NCBI GenBank assembly: GCA_026395915.1
Contig: JAPLXU010000020.1
Coordinates: 18,729 to 82,728 of the forward strand
Length of the DNA stretch: 64,000 nt
Reading direction: 5' to 3'
DNA from: Candidatus Nomurabacteria bacterium
GTDB taxonomy: Bacteria; Patescibacteriota; Minisyncoccia; Phycocordibacterales; UBA9973
How positions within the stretch are numbered: the first letter of the stretch is position 1; each line of letters opens with the position of its first letter. The notes below the pieces were generated by a model. The model searched no databases. It was not told where the DNA came from and was given only the letters and a program-made list of their open reading frames with translations. Below, piece by piece: positions 434 through 62,092 of the stretch. The position numbers and the translations under genes were made by a program.

Positions 434-442
434 TGTGGATAA
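434..442 (-). promoter_or_regulatory. TTATCCACA (DnaA-box consensus 9-mer) about 30 nt upstream of -10 TATAAT (473-478) of surface protein gene
   Basis: tgtggataa on + strand; same 9-mer found upstream of three other giant surface protein genes. Confidence 0.4.
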
Positions 443-487
443 GTTTTGATTGTAGTGTCTTCTGATAGAGAGTATAATAATTAGACT

Positions 488-2989
488 ATGAAAACTTCTT
501 TTTTGAAAATAGTTTCTGTTCTAGTTTTTTTCTTGGCAGTTTTTGTCTTGCCTTCTCATACTAATGCAAATAATCCTGCGTGTGGTGTTAGTACTAGCCC
601 GTGGGTGATTACAACTCTTAATTCTTCAACAGGAGGGATTTGCGATTGGACGGTTCCTGCCGGAGTTACACAAATACAAGTGAAAGTATGGGGTGGCGGT
701 GGAGCTGGAGGCGGAAATGGTGGTGATGATAATGGTGGAGGTGGAGGTGGAGGTGGCGCATTTGGAGAAAAAACGATTACTGTTGTTCCTGGAAGTACGT
801 ACACTATTTATGTTGGCTCTGGTGCCACCCATGGTCAAACTGAAGGAGGTCCTAGTTCTTTTGGCAGTTTAGCTGATCATTTAATTGCTTATGGAGGAGG
901 CAGTGGAAAAGTATGTACGGGTGGAGGTTGCGCGGGCGGAATTGGCGGTATTCCAGGTAATGGTTTTGCAGTTTCAACTAAAATTTATGGAAATGATGGA
1001 ATTCCTCCTGGTTACTATTTAGGTGATGGTATTTGGAGAGGTGGAAAGGGTGGTGATTCTGGGGAATGTTCTCTTAACGCTTCATGTGCGGGAAAAGGCG
1101 GTCTAGGTAGAAAAGGTACAGGGGATTATGATTCATGTCCAGCTCCTTACGATTACAACAGCAATGTTGACTGTGGAAATGCTGATGGGTATCAAGGAGG
1201 ATTTCCTGGAGGAGGAGGTGGAGGAGGTGGAGATTTTCACAATCGAGGTGACGGTTTAGGTGGCAAAGGTGGTGATGGTAAAGTTGTAATCACTGATACG
1301 ACTCCAGCAGTTCAAACTTACACCGTCTCTGGAACTGTTTCTGGATCACACGGTACTATCTCTCCAGCCACTCAAACAATTAATTCCGGAAGCACTACAA
1401 CTCTCACCGTAACTCCAAGCGCAGGATACACAGCTACAGTTTCAGGCTGTGGCGGTTCGTTGTCTCAAAATACTTTCACTACTGGCACGATAACTGCCAG
1501 TTGTACAGTTACTGCTAGTTTTTCCGCAACAGTTACTCCCGTAAACGGCGTCTGTGGCTCTGCTAATGGGACACCTGTTTCGTCAACTCCGTCCACTAAT
1601 TTTTGTTCAGTAGGTTCACCTTCTTCAGTTTCCGGTCCTGGCCCTTGGAGTTGGACATGCGCTGGTTCAAATAGTGGTTCAACTGCTTCTTGTTCGGCTA
1701 ATCTTGCAGTTACTCCTCCAGCCACACCTTCCTGTTCATCAGGTTCGTTTCCAATCGACCTCCATGGCTGGGCTTGGTCTTCGAATATCGGCTGGATAAG
1801 TTTCAATTCTTCTGACGCAGGCGCCGGAGGCGGTCCTTACAAAGTGTCTGTTGACGCTTCGGGGAATTTAAATGGTTACGCTTGGTCTTCGAATATCGGC
1901 TGGATAAAGTTCGGCGGACTTTCAGGTTTTCCATCTGGAGGAGGAACACAGGCTCAAGATGCGCAAATAAACGGTAACAATCTCAAAGGCTGGGCGAGAG
2001 CTCTTTCATATGGCGGAGGATGGGACGGTTGGATTTCTCTTTCAGGAGCGGGACCAAACTATGGTCCGACGATATCCGACAATACCATAACAGGATACGC
2101 GTGGGGCTCGGATGTCGTGGGCTGGATTGATTTCAGCGCGACCACTTCGGGTGGAGGGACGACGAACGGTGTCACTTGCGGGAATTCAAACGCCATGTCT
2201 GGTACTCTCACTCCCGCGTCTCCTTCTTGTACTATCGTGGCTGGAGCAAGCAGTTGCAGTGTAAATTTGACTTGGACTACGACGAATCCAGTTGGCACTT
2301 CTGCTGTCACTGCTACTGGAATGTCTAACATAAATGGAAATTCAGGCGGTCCTACGGCTTTTACGGTTCCATATTCTAGTAGGGTATTTCATCTTTTTAA
2401 TAATAATGTTGAACTTGCTCTAAGCAATGCCACTTCAAGTTGCGTGTCAGGCACGGTTTGGAATGGAAGTACAAGTACATGTGTGCCAACGCAAGTAGAT
2501 TTCTCTTTGTCGGCGCACTATATCGACAAGACGGCAATAGCTGATGGGGCTATTGTTCCATCACTTTCGGTACCAATTGGTTCTCCAGCTGATCTGAGTT
2601 GGACAATAGACGGTAATATGAAATCTTGTTTGACTATTCCTGCTGGGTCTGGATCTGATTGGAACAAATTGACGAACCAGACAGAAAGTCTTGGGAAAAT
2701 AGCAAGTGGAACATCTGGCAATGACACAGTTTCGCTCAATACTTTAGGTGATCATACTTTCCAAATTAGGTGTATTGATTCTAATGATGAAATCCAATCA
2801 CGAGCTATTATAATAAATGTGACTGCTTCTGCTTGTTCTACAACTCACTATAAATGTTCCGATGGTATTATTCCTGATACTGGTACAAATAGACATAATT
2901 ATCCTTCAAAGGTAACATGGGATTGCACTGTAAATGGAGTTACTTCAAACTGTACAGAAAATAAAGGCCCAGGCTGGCACGAAAATTAA
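488..2989 (+). CDS. secreted Gly-rich / Thr-Ser-rich surface protein with WSSNIGWI tandem repeats (833 aa)
   Basis: N-terminal signal peptide MKTSFLKIVSVLVFFLAVFVLPSHTNA; GGGGAGGGNGG and GGGGGGGG tracts; three GYAWSSNIGWI-like repeats; no catalytic motif recognised. Confidence 0.8.
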   Translation: MKTSFLKIVSVLVFFLAVFVLPSHTNANNPACGVSTSPWVITTLNSSTGGICDWTVPAGVTQIQVKVWGGGGAGGGNGGDDNGGGGGGGGAFGEKTITVVPGSTYTIYVGSGATHGQTEGGPSSFGSLADHLIAYGGGSGKVCTGGGCAGGIGGIPGNGFAVSTKIYGNDGIPPGYYLGDGIWRGGKGGDSGECSLNASCAGKGGLGRKGTGDYDSCPAPYDYNSNVDCGNADGYQGGFPGGGGGGGGDFHNRGDGLGGKGGDGKVVITDTTPAVQTYTVSGTVSGSHGTISPATQTINSGSTTTLTVTPSAGYTATVSGCGGSLSQNTFTTGTITASCTVTASFSATVTPVNGVCGSANGTPVSSTPSTNFCSVGSPSSVSGPGPWSWTCAGSNSGSTASCSANLAVTPPATPSCSSGSFPIDLHGWAWSSNIGWISFNSSDAGAGGGPYKVSVDASGNLNGYAWSSNIGWIKFGGLSGFPSGGGTQAQDAQINGNNLKGWARALSYGGGWDGWISLSGAGPNYGPTISDNTITGYAWGSDVVGWIDFSATTSGGGTTNGVTCGNSNAMSGTLTPASPSCTIVAGASSCSVNLTWTTTNPVGTSAVTATGMSNINGNSGGPTAFTVPYSSRVFHLFNNNVELALSNATSSCVSGTVWNGSTSTCVPTQVDFSLSAHYIDKTAIADGAIVPSLSVPIGSPADLSWTIDGNMKSCLTIPAGSGSDWNKLTNQTESLGKIASGTSGNDTVSLNTLGDHTFQIRCIDSNDEIQSRAIIINVTASACSTTHYKCSDGIIPDTGTNRHNYPSKVTWDCTVNGVTSNCTENKGPGWHEN
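1772..1907 (+). repeat. 28-bp exact direct repeat gcttggtcttcgaatatcggctggataa (1772-1799 and 1880-1907) encoding WSSNIGWI repeats
   Basis: read directly in sequence. Confidence 0.8.
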
Positions 2990-3021
2990 AAAATTTTAGA
3001 AACAGTTTATAAAAAAAACAT

Positions 3022-3042
3022 CCGCGGAGCATTGCGCCGCGG
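3022..3042. terminator. GC hairpin ccgcggagcattgcgccgcgg flanked by A-run (+) / T-run (-): likely bidirectional intrinsic terminator
   Basis: hairpin followed on minus strand by tgttttttttat; sits between convergent genes 488..2989(+) and 3114..3869(-). Confidence 0.5.
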
Positions 3043-3113
3043 TGTTGTGATACCTTCGATCGAGAAAAAAAGAACAATCAGGCTAACGACTTGCGTTACC
3101 TGCGAAAAAGTGA

Positions 3114-60989: not shown

Positions 60990-61880
60990 ATGATTATACA
61001 ACAACAAATCAAAAATCGTTTAAAAGAACTGAAAGAGCGTTACAATTCTCTTAGAATTGGCAAGGATGATCTCTTAAAGCTAATAGAGGAAGCAGAAGTG
61101 GCAGAATCAGTTTATAACTCAAATGCTATCGAAAATTCAACGCTTACGCTGAAAGAAACTGAGCGAATTCTTCTGGAACTTGAGGTTGCGCGTCAAGTTT
61201 CTTCTCGTGAGATTTTTGAAGCGAAAAATCTCGCTAGAGTTTCTGAATATATCAGAGAAAAAGCAAAAACCATTGATATAAATGAAGAAATAATTTTATT
61301 TCTTCACAAAATGCTTATTACAGCAATCAGAGATGACATTGCTGGCAGATTTCGTGCCGTTGGGGAGTATGTTCGTGTAGGAAGTTATATTGCTCCTGCG
61401 CCGGAATATATTAAGAATATGATCAAAAGAGCTATTGCAGAATACGACAATAACCATGAATCATATTTCATAGATAAAATTGCGAAGTTTCATTTAGAAT
61501 TTGAAAATATACATCCATTTAATGATGGGAACGGTCGTATTGGACGGGTACTTATCAATTGGCAATTAATTCGTTTTGGTTTTCCTCCTATAATTATTCG
61601 AAATAAGGAGAAGTCTGATTACTATGATTCATTTGCTTTGTATAGAGATAAAAGCAATATTAGACCAATAGCAAAGATAATAGTTCTTGGGCTTATGGAA
61701 TCATTGCATAAACGAGTCGCATATCTAGAGAATGCCCAGATTATAAAGCTATCTGAGTTTGCCAAAATGCGCCACAAAACTGCTTCAGCTCTTGCAAATG
61801 CTGCTAGACGTCAAACAATTCCCGCTTTTCGAGAAAAAGGTGTTTGGAAAATATCTACGAATTCAATATTGTCTAGTTAA
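60990..61880 (+). CDS. Fic/Doc-family protein (class II Fic with N-terminal inhibitory motif and C-terminal HTH)
   Basis: Fic motif HPFNDGNGRIGR; inhibitory helix motif SNAIEN (S/TxxxE(G/N)); C-terminal HTH-like KLSEFAKMRHKTASALANAARR. Confidence 0.85.
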   Translation: MIIQQQIKNRLKELKERYNSLRIGKDDLLKLIEEAEVAESVYNSNAIENSTLTLKETERILLELEVARQVSSREIFEAKNLARVSEYIREKAKTIDINEEIILFLHKMLITAIRDDIAGRFRAVGEYVRVGSYIAPAPEYIKNMIKRAIAEYDNNHESYFIDKIAKFHLEFENIHPFNDGNGRIGRVLINWQLIRFGFPPIIIRNKEKSDYYDSFALYRDKSNIRPIAKIIVLGLMESLHKRVAYLENAQIIKLSEFAKMRHKTASALANAARRQTIPAFREKGVWKISTNSILSS

Positions 61881-61891
61881 TGTAATTAGCT

Positions 61892-61981
61892 TTCCATCTC
61901 GTAAAGGACAATGTTGTTTTTTATGGTCCGCTTATGTCCGATAGCGAGATCGCTCAGACCTTGGCAACGAAAGGGAAGTAA
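61892..61981 (+). pseudogene. start-less duplicate of the 3' end of gene 60552..60908 (encodes ...HLVKDNVVFYGPLMSDSEIAQTLATKGK*)
   Basis: 44-bp block 41/44 identical to 60822-60865; in-frame stop upstream, no start codon. Confidence 0.6.
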
Positions 61982-62056
61982 CCTCATCCCTGACCTTCCC
62001 CTGAAAGGGGAAGGGGTTTTCCTCCTCTCCTTTCAGGAGAGGATTTAGGTGAGGTG
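61981..62056. repeat. tandem GC-rich hairpins ccttcccctgaaaggggaagg and cctctcctttcaggagagg-N-ggtgagg
   Basis: second hairpin block nearly identical (34/35) to 56461-56495. Confidence 0.8.
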
Positions 62057-62083
62057 GATATAAACCAGCACCTAATTCAAAAG

Positions 62084-62092
62084 TTATCCACA
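62084..62092 (+). promoter_or_regulatory. TTATCCACA 9-mer upstream of adhesin-like gene
   Basis: aagTTATCCACAtttttt. Confidence 0.4.

What the first reader, a model, noticed from the sequence alone, without database searches (positions are those of the whole stretch)
434..62092. Perfect DnaA-box 9-mer TTATCCACA in the promoter region of each of four giant surface-protein genes
The exact 9-mer occurs at 434-442 (minus strand), 27177-27185, 56616-56624 and 62084-62092. In the three plus-strand copies it is preceded by AG. Each copy lies 40-370 nt upstream of a large secreted/surface protein gene (488, 27249, 56978, 62339). I found no other perfect copies in the window. Rough expectation for this composition is below one copy per 64 kb on both strands. 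Dispersed single boxes tens of kb apart are not an oriC. This looks like a shared cis-element for co-regulation of the surface-protein repertoire, by DnaA acting as a transcription factor or by another regulator.
Basis: seen in the sequence. Interest (0 to 1): 0.65.

Follow-up and report, generated by a model that had tools for sequence, protein, structure and literature searches.

The report
DnaA-box promoter element of secreted-protein genes
In this uncultured groundwater bacterium (Candidatus Nomurabacteria) and its relatives, the exact DNA word normally bound by the replication initiator DnaA sits at one fixed spot just upstream of the promoters of large secreted-protein genes, which suggests that surface-protein production is tied to the replication initiator, although the binding protein has not been shown.

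Summary
The 9-mer is real and non-random, but it has 5 copies, not 4. Shuffles give 0.46 copies, and 4 of the 5 lie in the 6.7% of the window that is intergenic.

In all four intergenic copies the box ends 30-31 nt before a TATAAT/GATAAT -10 hexamer, which places it at about -44 to -52, next to a weak -35.

In 2.3 Mb from 160 related Nomurabacteria/Paceibacteria loci the box is about 25-30 times enriched in intergenic DNA and not enriched in coding DNA:
- TATAAT starts 29-33 nt after the box in 30 of 60 sites (expected 0.5).
- 54 of 60 boxes point at the next gene.
- 19 of 27 downstream protein families have a signal-peptide or transmembrane N-terminus (background 38%).
- In 20 orthologous promoters only the box, the TT of the -35 and the -10 are invariant.
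- Only position 5 tolerates substitution, which matches DnaA-box degeneracy (TTATNCACA).

It is not an oriC, a box cluster or a mobile repeat.

Best reading: a conserved, position-fixed upstream promoter element, most likely bound by DnaA acting as a transcription factor. Its main departure from E. coli practice is that boxes are single rather than paired. The binder is inferred, not shown.

The parts
434..442 (-). Box 1, TTATCCACA, inverted relative to gene 488-2989. On the + strand it reads TGTGGATAA.
   Evidence: On the + strand it is followed by 30 nt and then TATAAT. Close relatives L011 and L012 carry an inverted box 40 and 38 nt before the ATG of the corresponding secreted-protein gene.
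450..478 (+). Predicted sigma-70-type promoter of gene 488: -35 TTGTAG (450-455), 17-nt spacer, -10 TATAAT (473-478). Only 9 nt separate the -10 from the ATG, so the mRNA would be nearly leaderless.
   Evidence: Read directly from the sequence. The transcription start is not tested.
488..2989 (+). 833-aa secreted protein with a Gly_rich_2 domain.
27177..27185 (+). Box 2, AG-TTATCCACA. It starts directly after the stop codon of the PIF1-helicase gene.
   Evidence: The syntenic orthologue L172 has aatagTTTTCCACA (position 3 A>T, still within TTWTNCACA), followed by 29 nt and then TGtGATAAT.
27213..27221 (+). Extended -10, TGaGATAAT, beginning 30 nt after box 2.
   Evidence: Read from the sequence.
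27249..30602 (+). 1117-aa secreted protein with an LCAT/DUF676-type alpha/beta-hydrolase domain.
29264..29272 (-). Fifth perfect copy. It is intragenic and antisense, with no -10 at the promoter distance. It is probably a chance copy and not a promoter element.
   Evidence: The pooled count of copies in long ORFs (about 18) matches the count expected from permuted 9-mers (about 20).
56616..56624 (+). Box 3, AG-TTATCCACA.
   Evidence: It is invariant in 20 orthologous promoters.
56632..56661 (+). Promoter of gene 56978: weak -35 TTGCTC (56632-56637), 18-nt spacer containing the inverted repeat GCTCTattgcAGAGC, and -10 TATAAT (56656-56661), which starts 31 nt after the box.
56668..56977 (+). 5' leader of about 310 nt. 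Its first ~105 nt form two conserved stem-loops.
   Evidence: 14 of 26 predicted pairs show compensatory changes across 10 orthologues. There is no Rfam match.
56978..60397 (+). 1139-aa secreted protein with an N-terminal PG_binding_1 domain.
   Evidence: It belongs to a 22-member family whose genes all sit behind box promoters.
62084..62092 (+). Box 4, AG-TTATCCACA.
   Evidence: Orthologous sites are L111:2103 and L102:220.
62100..62129 (+). Promoter of gene 62339: -35 TTGTGT (62100-62105), 18-nt spacer, and -10 TATAAT (62124-62129), which starts 31 nt after the box. The leader is about 205 nt.
62339..64000 (+). Secreted repeat protein of more than 553 aa that runs off the end of the window.
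   Evidence: repeat family D1.

Best explanation
AGTTATCCACA is a functional upstream promoter element of a distinct promoter class in Candidatus Nomurabacteria and related Paceibacteria. One box lies at about -44 to -52, some 7 nt upstream of a weak TTGCnn-type -35 and 29-33 nt upstream of a consensus TATAAT. It almost always reads towards the gene. The promoters it marks mostly drive genes for secreted, lipoprotein or membrane-anchored proteins, several of them with long structured leaders.

The most likely binder is the replication initiator DnaA, bound through its domain IV to a single high-affinity box. From that position it would contact RNA polymerase (alpha-CTD or sigma region 4) and most likely stimulate transcription. 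Output of these surface-protein genes would then follow the amount of free DnaA, and so the replication or growth state.

Shown here:
- the element exists;
- its position and orientation are fixed;
- it is conserved across the clade;
- its substitution profile is that of a DnaA box;
- it is associated with exported proteins.

Inferred:
- that DnaA is the binder;
- that the effect is activation rather than repression;
- where transcription starts.
For: 1. Chance is excluded in the window.
2. Two independent samples of relatives agree. PilB-anchored genome loci (1.46 Mb): 23 intergenic and 13 coding copies, against 0.85 and 13.1 for 300 same-composition permuted 9-mers. RecA-anchored metagenome loci (0.88 Mb): 33 and 14, against 1.07 and 6.4.
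3. At least 9 of the 28 copies scored 'coding' lie in dubious 71-112 aa ORFs and have the promoter layout.
4. The register is fixed. Exact TATAAT starts 29-33 nt after the box in 30 of 60 sites (expected 0.5, p = 5e-46). Outside the site-3 gene family the count is 8 of 34 (p = 4e-10). 54 of 60 boxes are co-oriented with the next gene.
5. Footprint: in 20 orthologous site-3 promoters the only invariant columns are the 9-mer, the TT of the -35 and TATA-T of the -10. Mean column identity is 38%. Site 2 and site 4 orthologues keep the element too.
6. The conserved leader structure begins right after the -10, which supports that hexamer as the real promoter.
7. DnaA fingerprint: among all 27 single substitutions, position-5 variants stand out in intergenic DNA (intergenic/coding counts A 17/9, G 6/8, T 7/20, against a typical 0-5/5-57), with a lesser excess for 7C (6/9). 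These variants occur in the same layout. The site-2 orthologue uses TTTTCCACA. Together this equals TTWTNCACA.
8. A head-to-tail second box 2 bp upstream occurs in 5 of 60 sites, against 0-2 at other offsets.
9. The promoters form a distinct class. The extended -10 TG occurs in 1 of 27 box promoters, against 126 of 420 other intergenic TATAATs (p = 0.0016).
10. Targets: 19 of 27 downstream protein families have an N-terminal hydrophobic segment, against a 38% background (Fisher p = 9e-4).
11. Precedent: DnaA bound at high-affinity boxes in the nrdAB promoter region can activate by stabilising the RNA polymerase-DNA complex (review PMC8203912).
Against: - No binding or expression data exist for any of these uncultured organisms.
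- No dnaA gene or oriC lies in the window or in the 2.4 Mb held. I therefore could not confirm that this clade's DnaA keeps the box-contacting residues, or that its origin uses the same 9-mer.
- In E. coli, ChIP-seq shows that almost all DnaA targets need a pair of boxes 2-3 bp apart (PMC11317965). Here 55 of 60 sites are single.
- Strict orientation and distance dependence is also typical of other monomeric activators.
- The exported-protein association rests on a crude hydrophobicity rule with a high background (38%). The loci sampled are all anchored near pilB or recA, so many sites are orthologous rather than independent. Counting by family reduces this problem but does not remove it.
- Box 1 is inverted relative to its gene.
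- Other exported proteins in the window have no box.
Confidence: 0.55

Rival explanations
1. The element is a real promoter element of the same kind, but it is read by something other than DnaA. Candidates are a lineage-specific monomeric transcription factor (MarA/SoxS-like logic: an asymmetric site that depends on orientation and distance) or RNA polymerase itself (an UP-like or extended -35 contact). On this reading the identity with the DnaA box is a coincidence or mimicry.
For: - Boxes are single rather than paired, unlike E. coli DnaA targets.
- Register and orientation relative to -35/-10 are strict.
- The A-2/G-1 flank preference extends the motif to 11 nt.
- No dnaA gene was seen in the held sequence.
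Against: - All eight specific positions equal the DnaA-box consensus.
- The one freely variable position is exactly the N of TTATNCACA, and the site-2 orthologue uses the permitted W at position 3.
- Occasional 2-bp head-to-tail pairs occur, as in DnaA arrays.
- DnaA would bind a perfect box anyway if its specificity is conserved.
- No candidate regulator gene is linked to the sites (Pfam).
- UP elements are A/T tracts, not this sequence (established knowledge).
Confidence: 0.27
2. The boxes are DnaA reservoir or titration sites, spread over an origin-proximal region to buffer free DnaA as proposed for E. coli. On this reading their location in promoters has no transcriptional meaning.
For: - Box density is high: 7 perfect boxes in 66 kb of this organism.
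- The window has a uniformly positive GC skew and mostly + strand genes, as expected just right of an origin.
- In relatives the neighbouring nusA junction is a point where strand and skew both switch, and it carries 1-2 boxes.
- Origin-proximal accumulation of DnaA boxes has been reported for E. coli (PMC12371093).
Against: - Titration does not need a 29-33 nt register to a -10, a fixed orientation towards the gene, or a promoter class that lacks the TG extension.
- The sites are single, not clustered like datA or the B. subtilis DnaA-box clusters.
- Titration and regulation are not mutually exclusive.
Confidence: 0.1
3. The boxes are fragments of a replication origin, or of a degenerate or secondary oriC.
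For: The sequence is the perfect DnaA box. Relatives have 1-2 boxes at a GC-skew and gene-orientation switch next to nusA, and the same junction lies 2.2 kb to the left of this window.
Against: - No cluster of 3 or more TTWTNCACA boxes within 400 bp exists anywhere in the window or in the 160 loci.
- There is no dnaA nearby.
- The four window sites are 5-29 kb apart, each sits inside a promoter, and no skew switch occurs at any of them.
Confidence: 0.03
4. The copies are a chance recurrence, or they belong to a dispersed repeat or mobile element (MITE/REP) that happens to contain the 9-mer.
For: Palindromic repeat units lie upstream of boxes 3 and 4, and a Y1-transposase gene with a terminal palindrome lies next to box 1.
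Against: - 0 of 100 shuffles reach 5 copies.
- No repeat family of 22 nt or more includes a box. The repeat-to-box distances differ (120 vs 28 nt).
- Flanks are unrelated apart from -35 and -10.
- The same 9-mer is enriched in relatives that lack those repeats.
Confidence: 0.02

Closest known systems
DnaA-regulated promoters of E. coli (dnaA, nrdAB, mioC, guaB, uvrB and others)
   Same: Consensus DnaA boxes lie in or just upstream of sigma-70 promoters. At nrdAB, DnaA at high-affinity boxes can activate by stabilising RNA polymerase (PMC8203912).
   Different: E. coli targets are few, concern nucleotide, replication and repair genes, and almost all need two boxes 2-3 bp apart (PMC11317965). 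Here there is one box at one fixed position and orientation, present in dozens of promoters across a clade, and the targets are mainly exported proteins. Binding by DnaA is not shown here.
Bacillus subtilis DnaA regulon and DnaA-box clusters (DBCs)
   Same: Perfect TTATCCACA boxes are concentrated in intergenic regions outside oriC, and some regulate neighbouring genes (PMC3245932 abstract).
   Different: DBCs are clusters of many boxes and also act in titration. Here no cluster of 3 or more boxes exists.
Caulobacter crescentus DnaA as a cell-cycle transcription factor (gcrA, ftsZ, podJ)
   Same: The replication initiator is used as a master regulator of non-replication functions, including polar and surface development (PMC3193534 abstract; the target genes are from my own knowledge).
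   Different: The phylum is different, the Caulobacter box consensus is looser, and no fixed -47 architecture has been described there. The analogy is one of function only.
Monomeric asymmetric activator sites (MarA/SoxS/Rob 'marbox' class I/II promoters)
   Same: A single non-palindromic site whose effect depends on its orientation and its distance from the -35 (established knowledge). This is the logic the layout here resembles.
   Different: The sequence is unrelated to the marbox, and no AraC-family gene is linked to the sites. This is a comparison of mechanism, not of membership.
oriC and datA DnaA-box arrays
   Same: The same 9-mer. In a few relatives there are head-to-tail pairs with 2-bp spacing.
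   Different: There is no array, no unwinding element and no dnaA/dnaN neighbourhood, and each site lies inside a promoter.

Membership tests
DnaA box (TTWTNCACA 9-mer) | Match to the consensus TTATCCACA | tested here: met
   There are five 9/9 matches in the window, 88 in the pooled 2.4 Mb, and two more 2.2 kb to the left of the window in the same organism.
DnaA box (TTWTNCACA 9-mer) | Degeneracy pattern: position 5 is free, position 3 is A or T, and the other positions are fixed | tested here: met
   Intergenic enrichment survives mainly for position-5 substitutions (A 17/9, G 6/8, T 7/20 intergenic/coding), with a lesser excess for 7C (6/9), and weakly for 3T (6/28). All other variants look like background. 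The variants occur in the same promoter layout. The site-2 orthologue is TTTTCCACA. One orthologue has TTATCCCCA (position 7), which lies outside the classical consensus.
DnaA box (TTWTNCACA 9-mer) | Bound by DnaA domain IV | not testable with these tools
   This needs EMSA, footprinting or DAP-seq with the clade's DnaA.
DnaA box (TTWTNCACA 9-mer) | The genome encodes a DnaA with conserved box-contacting residues | not tested
   A PROSITE-like signature and a Walker-A regex found no dnaA in the window or among 2,348 ORFs of the held loci.
DnaA-dependent promoter, E. coli type | A pair of boxes spaced 2-3 bp apart is needed for binding in vivo (PMC11317965) | tested here: not met
   Only 5 of 60 sites have a second site matching 6 or more of 8 positions at -11 on the same strand. 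None of the four window sites does.
DnaA-dependent promoter, E. coli type | Transcription changes with DnaA level or nucleotide state | not testable with these tools
   The organisms are uncultured and no expression data are available.
Sigma-70-type promoter | A -10 hexamer close to TATAAT at a constant distance, with a -35 located 16-18 nt upstream of it | tested here: met
   TATAAT or GATAAT starts 30-31 nt after the box at all four window sites and 29-33 nt after it in 30 of 60 pooled sites. The -35 is weak (TTGCnn, mean 3.4 of 6). The generic scan does not list these promoters because the -35 scores below 4 of 6.
Sigma-70-type promoter | A mapped transcription start | not testable with these tools
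   Indirect support only: the conserved leader helices begin about 7 nt after the -10.
Chromosomal origin (oriC) | A cluster of several DnaA boxes with an AT-rich unwinding element, usually beside dnaA or dnaN, at a GC-skew switch | tested here: not met
   No cluster of 3 or more relaxed boxes per 400 bp. No dnaA. No skew switch at the four sites.
DnaA titration locus (datA or DBC type) | A dense cluster of 4 or more boxes | tested here: not met
Dispersed repeat or mobile element (MITE/REP) | Copies share extended flanking homology | tested here: not met
   No repeat family of 22 nt or more includes a box. The flanks are unrelated.

The most novel reading that the evidence does not exclude
In Nomurabacteria-type CPR bacteria, which have very few transcription factors, the replication initiator DnaA has been recruited as a global activator of a dedicated promoter class. 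That class has a single box at -47, a weak -35 and no TG extension, and it drives much of the exported and cell-surface proteome (cell-wall-binding, adhesin-like and hydrolase proteins next to the pilus genes). The display of host-contact surface proteins would then be coupled directly to replication-initiation potential. Unlike in E. coli, one box would be enough.
Probability: 0.3. Interest if true: 0.75.

Novelty: new variant of a known kind. Interest (0 to 1): 0.6.

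Why it matters
Almost nothing is known about gene regulation in the Candidate Phyla Radiation. These bacteria are uncultured, they have tiny genomes and few recognisable regulators, and their large surface proteins are thought to mediate attachment to host cells.

A conserved, position-fixed cis-element that marks the promoters of those proteins gives several practical handles:
1. a way to predict a regulon directly from MAG sequence;
2. a concrete, cloneable hypothesis (DnaA plus an 11-mer) that can be tested in vitro without cultivation;
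3. if DnaA is the binder, an example of a replication initiator used as a general regulator of the cell envelope from single boxes, which differs from the paired-box, nucleotide-metabolism regulon of E. coli.

The analysis also identifies a probable major cell-wall-associated protein family that has a strong promoter and a structured leader.

Tried and rejected
- **oriC or box cluster.** I scanned the window and 160 loci for 3 or more TTWTNCACA boxes within 400 bp and found none. I looked for dnaA by signature and found none.
- **Mobile repeat.** The repeat finder found no family containing the box. The palindromic units upstream of boxes 3 and 4 lie at different distances from them.
- **Known RNA in the long leaders.** Rfam at gathering threshold found nothing. 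A permissive search of 56400-62400 returned only spurious hairpin ('miRNA') hits on the palindromes. There are no tRNAs.
- **A second, weaker box next to each perfect box (E. coli-style pairs).** Absent apart from 5 of 60 sites at -11.
- **An alternative-sigma -35/-10 starting at the box.** Nothing is conserved 16-18 nt downstream of the box other than the sigma-70 -35/-10.
- **A regulator encoded beside the sites.** Pfam on 50 window ORFs found no HTH or DnaA_C-like gene linked to the sites. The two PaaX_M-like proteins have their own palindromic operators.
- **Extending the window's own contig.** Only short Logan contigs were reachable, which gave 2.2 kb on the left and nothing on the right. 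One homologue's contig had no DNA on file.
- **Literature.** No paper in the held library combines DnaA boxes or TTATCCACA with Patescibacteria, CPR or Parcubacteria.
- **Not attempted.** I did not try to fetch a Nomurabacteria dnaA/oriC locus.

Full report
**1. Observation**

TTATCCACA occurs five times in the window, not four: 434-442 (-), 27177-27185 (+), 29264-29272 (-), 56616-56624 (+) and 62084-62092 (+). Dinucleotide-preserving shuffles give a mean of 0.46 copies, and 0 of 100 reach 5.

By my gene map 4,284 nt (6.7%) of the window is intergenic. Four of the five copies lie there (Poisson p about 4e-8).

The three plus-strand copies, and also the intragenic one, are preceded by AG. The four downstream ORFs (833, 1117, 1139 and more than 553 aa) all start with Sec-type signal peptides and are not paralogues. 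Their Pfam domains are Gly_rich_2, an LCAT/DUF676 esterase domain, PG_binding_1, and none.

**2. Anatomy in the window**

Reading the sequence, each intergenic box ends 30 or 31 nt before a -10 hexamer:

| Site | Box | -10 hexamer | Spacing | -35 |
|---|---|---|---|---|
| 1 | 434-442 (inverted) | TATAAT 473-478 | 30 nt | TTGTAG |
| 2 | 27177-27185 | TGaGATAAT 27213-27221 | 30 nt | none clear |
| 3 | 56616-56624 | TATAAT 56656-56661 | 31 nt | TTGCTC |
| 4 | 62084-62092 | TATAAT 62124-62129 | 31 nt | TTGTGT |

- The box therefore occupies about -44 to -52, some 7 nt upstream of a weak -35. The -35 is weak enough that the generic promoter scan skips these promoters.
- Sites 3 and 4 have leaders of about 310 and 205 nt. 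Site 1 would give a nearly leaderless mRNA.
- The boxes are not part of any repeat of 22 nt or more. The palindromic units upstream of boxes 3 and 4 lie at different distances from them.

**3. Organism**

The esterase protein is 100% identical to an NCBI entry, 'hypothetical protein NTZ87_04295 [Candidatus Nomurabacteria bacterium]', on an 87.9-kb contig. The closest PilB and RecA relatives are Nomurabacteria/Paceibacteria MAGs, many of them from the Hainich groundwater wells.

The gene content fits a CPR genome: type IV pilus genes, comEC, recJ, several aminoacyl-tRNA synthetases, recA and ftsK.

**4. Clade-wide census**

I fetched two independent sets of related loci: 80 from genomes, anchored on PilB (1.46 Mb, 64-88% identity), and 80 from metagenomes, anchored on RecA (0.88 Mb, 72-98% identity). 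I called ORFs with a simple greedy caller.

| Set | Intergenic copies | Coding copies | Permuted 9-mers, intergenic (mean) | Permuted 9-mers, coding (mean) |
|---|---|---|---|---|
| PilB-anchored | 23 | 13 | 0.85 (max 4) | 13.1 |
| RecA-anchored | 33 | 14 | 1.07 | 6.4 |

- The controls were 300 permuted 9-mers of the same composition.
- At least nine of the 'coding' copies lie in dubious 71-112 aa ORFs and have the promoter layout. True coding copies (about 18) therefore match expectation (about 20).
- In the same organism, 2.2 kb to the left of the window, two more perfect boxes occur. One follows the nusA leader and precedes a small membrane-protein gene, with 31 nt to TATACT.

**5. Fixed register and orientation**

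Pooling the window and the 160 loci gives 60 intergenic sites.

- Exact TATAAT starts 29-33 nt after the box in 30 of them (peak of 13 at 31 nt). The expectation from the intergenic TATAAT frequency is 0.5 (p = 5e-46).
- Outside the large site-3 gene family the figure is still 8 of 34 (p = 4e-10).
- A minor second mode lies at 40-42 nt, about one helical turn further.
- Only 5 scattered TATAATs lie upstream of the box.
- 54 of 60 boxes read towards the next gene.
- Box promoters lack the TG extension: 1 of 27, against 126 of 420 other intergenic TATAATs (p = 0.0016). They carry TTGCnn-type -35 hexamers. They therefore form a separate promoter class, of the kind that usually depends on an upstream activator (inference).

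**6. Phylogenetic footprint**

I aligned 20 orthologous promoters of the site-3 gene family. The only invariant columns are the nine box positions, the TT of the -35 and TATA-T of the -10. G-1 is 90% or more conserved, and mean column identity is 38%.

- Site 4 has orthologues at L111:2103 and L102:220.
- The syntenic site-2 orthologue (L172) reads aatagTTTTCCACA, then 29 nt, then TGtGATAAT. Another esterase homologue (L173) has TTATCCCCA, then 30 nt, then TATAAT. A third (L171) has no box.
- Close relatives of site 1 (L011, L012) also carry an inverted box 38-40 nt before the ATG.
- The site-3 leader folds into two stem-loops that begin about 7 nt after the -10, and 14 of 26 pairs show compensatory changes. 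This supports that hexamer as the real -10.

**7. Who binds?**

Evidence pointing to DnaA:
- A scan of all 27 single substitutions shows that intergenic enrichment survives mainly at position 5 (intergenic/coding counts A 17/9, G 6/8, T 7/20, against typically 0-5/5-57), with a lesser excess for 7C (6/9). This is the N of the DnaA consensus TTATNCACA.
- These variants sit in the same promoter layout, and the site-2 orthologue uses the allowed W at position 3.
- A head-to-tail second box 2 bp away occurs in 5 of 60 sites, against 0-2 at other offsets. That is the spacing of DnaA arrays.
- The flank preference A-2/G-1 extends the motif to AGTTATCCACA. From memory, E. coli R4 has the same flank; I did not test this.

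Evidence against DnaA:
- In E. coli nearly all in-vivo targets need a pair of boxes (PMC11317965). Here 55 of 60 sites are single.
- I could not retrieve dnaA or oriC of this clade.

DnaA acting from high-affinity boxes beside a promoter has precedent at nrdAB (PMC8203912). I put 0.55 on DnaA as a transcription factor, 0.27 on another factor or RNA polymerase itself, and 0.10 on pure titration. Titration is suggested by the high local density and by a nearby strand and skew switch, but it does not explain the register. oriC, chance and mobile repeats are essentially excluded.

**8. Targets**

- Of the 54 downstream genes co-oriented with their box, 43 have an N-terminal hydrophobic segment.
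- Collapsed into 27 BLAST families, 19 do, against 38% of 980 genes with an upstream gap of at least 60 nt (Fisher p = 9e-4).
- The targets include large secreted proteins, lipoproteins and small single-pass membrane proteins. A few boxes without the promoter layout face nusA, pilB, recJ or ftsK.
- Not every exported protein in the window has a box.
- The predictor is crude, and both locus sets are anchored near pilB or recA. A whole-genome test is still needed.

**9. Side observation on the origin**

In 10 of 11 relatives, the intergenic region between nusA (-) and the first secreted-protein gene (+) is a switch in both gene orientation and GC skew, and it carries 1-2 boxes. The same junction lies just to the left of this window. 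It has too few boxes to be called an oriC, but it could mean the window is close to the origin.

**10. Verdict**

This is a conserved, position-fixed DnaA-box element that defines a promoter class for exported-protein genes in Nomurabacteria.

It belongs to the known kind 'DnaA box in a promoter', but three features have not been described in the searched literature: the single-box fixed architecture, the clade-wide conservation, and the set of target genes. I rate it a new variant of a known kind, with interest 0.6.

Noticed in passing
window 56668-56775, and orthologues in L093, L094, L098, L099, L100, L104, L107, L111 and L133: The 5' leader of the PG_binding_1 secreted-protein gene begins with two conserved stem-loops, including the invariant GATTTCGTCGAAAAAATC hairpin. 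14 of 26 predicted pairs show compensatory changes. There is no Rfam family for it. It may be an mRNA-stabilising or regulatory leader of a highly expressed wall protein.
   Followed up: partly
window 56634-56648; the same position in L133, L146, L157, L132 and L147: The -35/-10 spacer of the site-3 promoters contains a short inverted repeat. Its sequence differs between orthologues but its symmetry is kept (GCTCTattgcAGAGC, GTTCT..GGAAC, AGTCTaatAGACT, GCATAaaaacTATGC). The terminator scan flags the window copy as a hairpin followed by a T-rich tail. The meaning is unknown; it could be an operator, a terminator overlapping the promoter, or a DNA structure.
   Followed up: no
L174:1-130 (same organism, 2.2 kb left of the window); L012, L015, L023, L028, L030, L032, L034, L042, L043, L044, L075, L173: The divergent region between nusA and the first secreted-protein gene is a switch point of gene orientation and GC skew in 10 of 11 relatives. 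It carries 1-2 DnaA boxes, sometimes as 2-bp-spaced tandem pairs, plus a conserved hairpin AAAGCCCTGTTGCGACAGGACT in the nusA leader. It may be near the origin, but it has too few boxes to call an oriC.
   Followed up: partly
window 56457-56546 and 61980-62062: Long imperfect palindromes built from CCTCTCCTTTCAGGAGAGG / AGGTGAGG units sit directly after ORFs 55649-56455 and 60990-61880. They form a small dispersed hairpin-repeat family, probably terminators or REP-like elements, and give spurious miRNA hits in Rfam.
   Followed up: partly
window 20-418 (full gene in L174:1946-2629): The 3' part of a Y1-transposase-like (IS200/RayT-type) gene is followed by the near-perfect palindrome CTTAAGCTAGGAC(T)GTCCTAGCTTAAG, 15 nt from box 1. 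Together with an AbiEi-like gene (L174:1537-1923), this looks like an insertion between the nusA junction and gene 488, compared with relatives.
   Followed up: partly
window 36844-37428 and 43996-44690: Two small PaaX_M/Cas2-like proteins (36884-37381 and 44039-44620) are each flanked by repeated palindromic elements. One of these, ATGCTATAGCAT, abuts a TATAAT. They are likely autoregulated operators of a CPR-typical regulator family and are unrelated to the DnaA box.
   Followed up: no
window 33107-36841: The isoleucyl-tRNA synthetase carries an inserted histidine-phosphatase (His_Phos_1) domain at residues 562-747. The insertion is conserved in relatives.
   Followed up: no
window 60822-60907 and 61895-61980: An 86-nt direct repeat (74% identity). 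The 3' end of ORF 60477-60908 is duplicated downstream of the Fic gene, just before the palindrome and box 4. This may be a remnant of a local duplication.
   Followed up: no
Pooled loci L011-L170: About 30% of intergenic TATAAT hexamers in this clade carry the TG extension, and consensus -35 hexamers are rare. This suggests that extended -10 promoters are the default promoter type in these genomes.
   Followed up: partly
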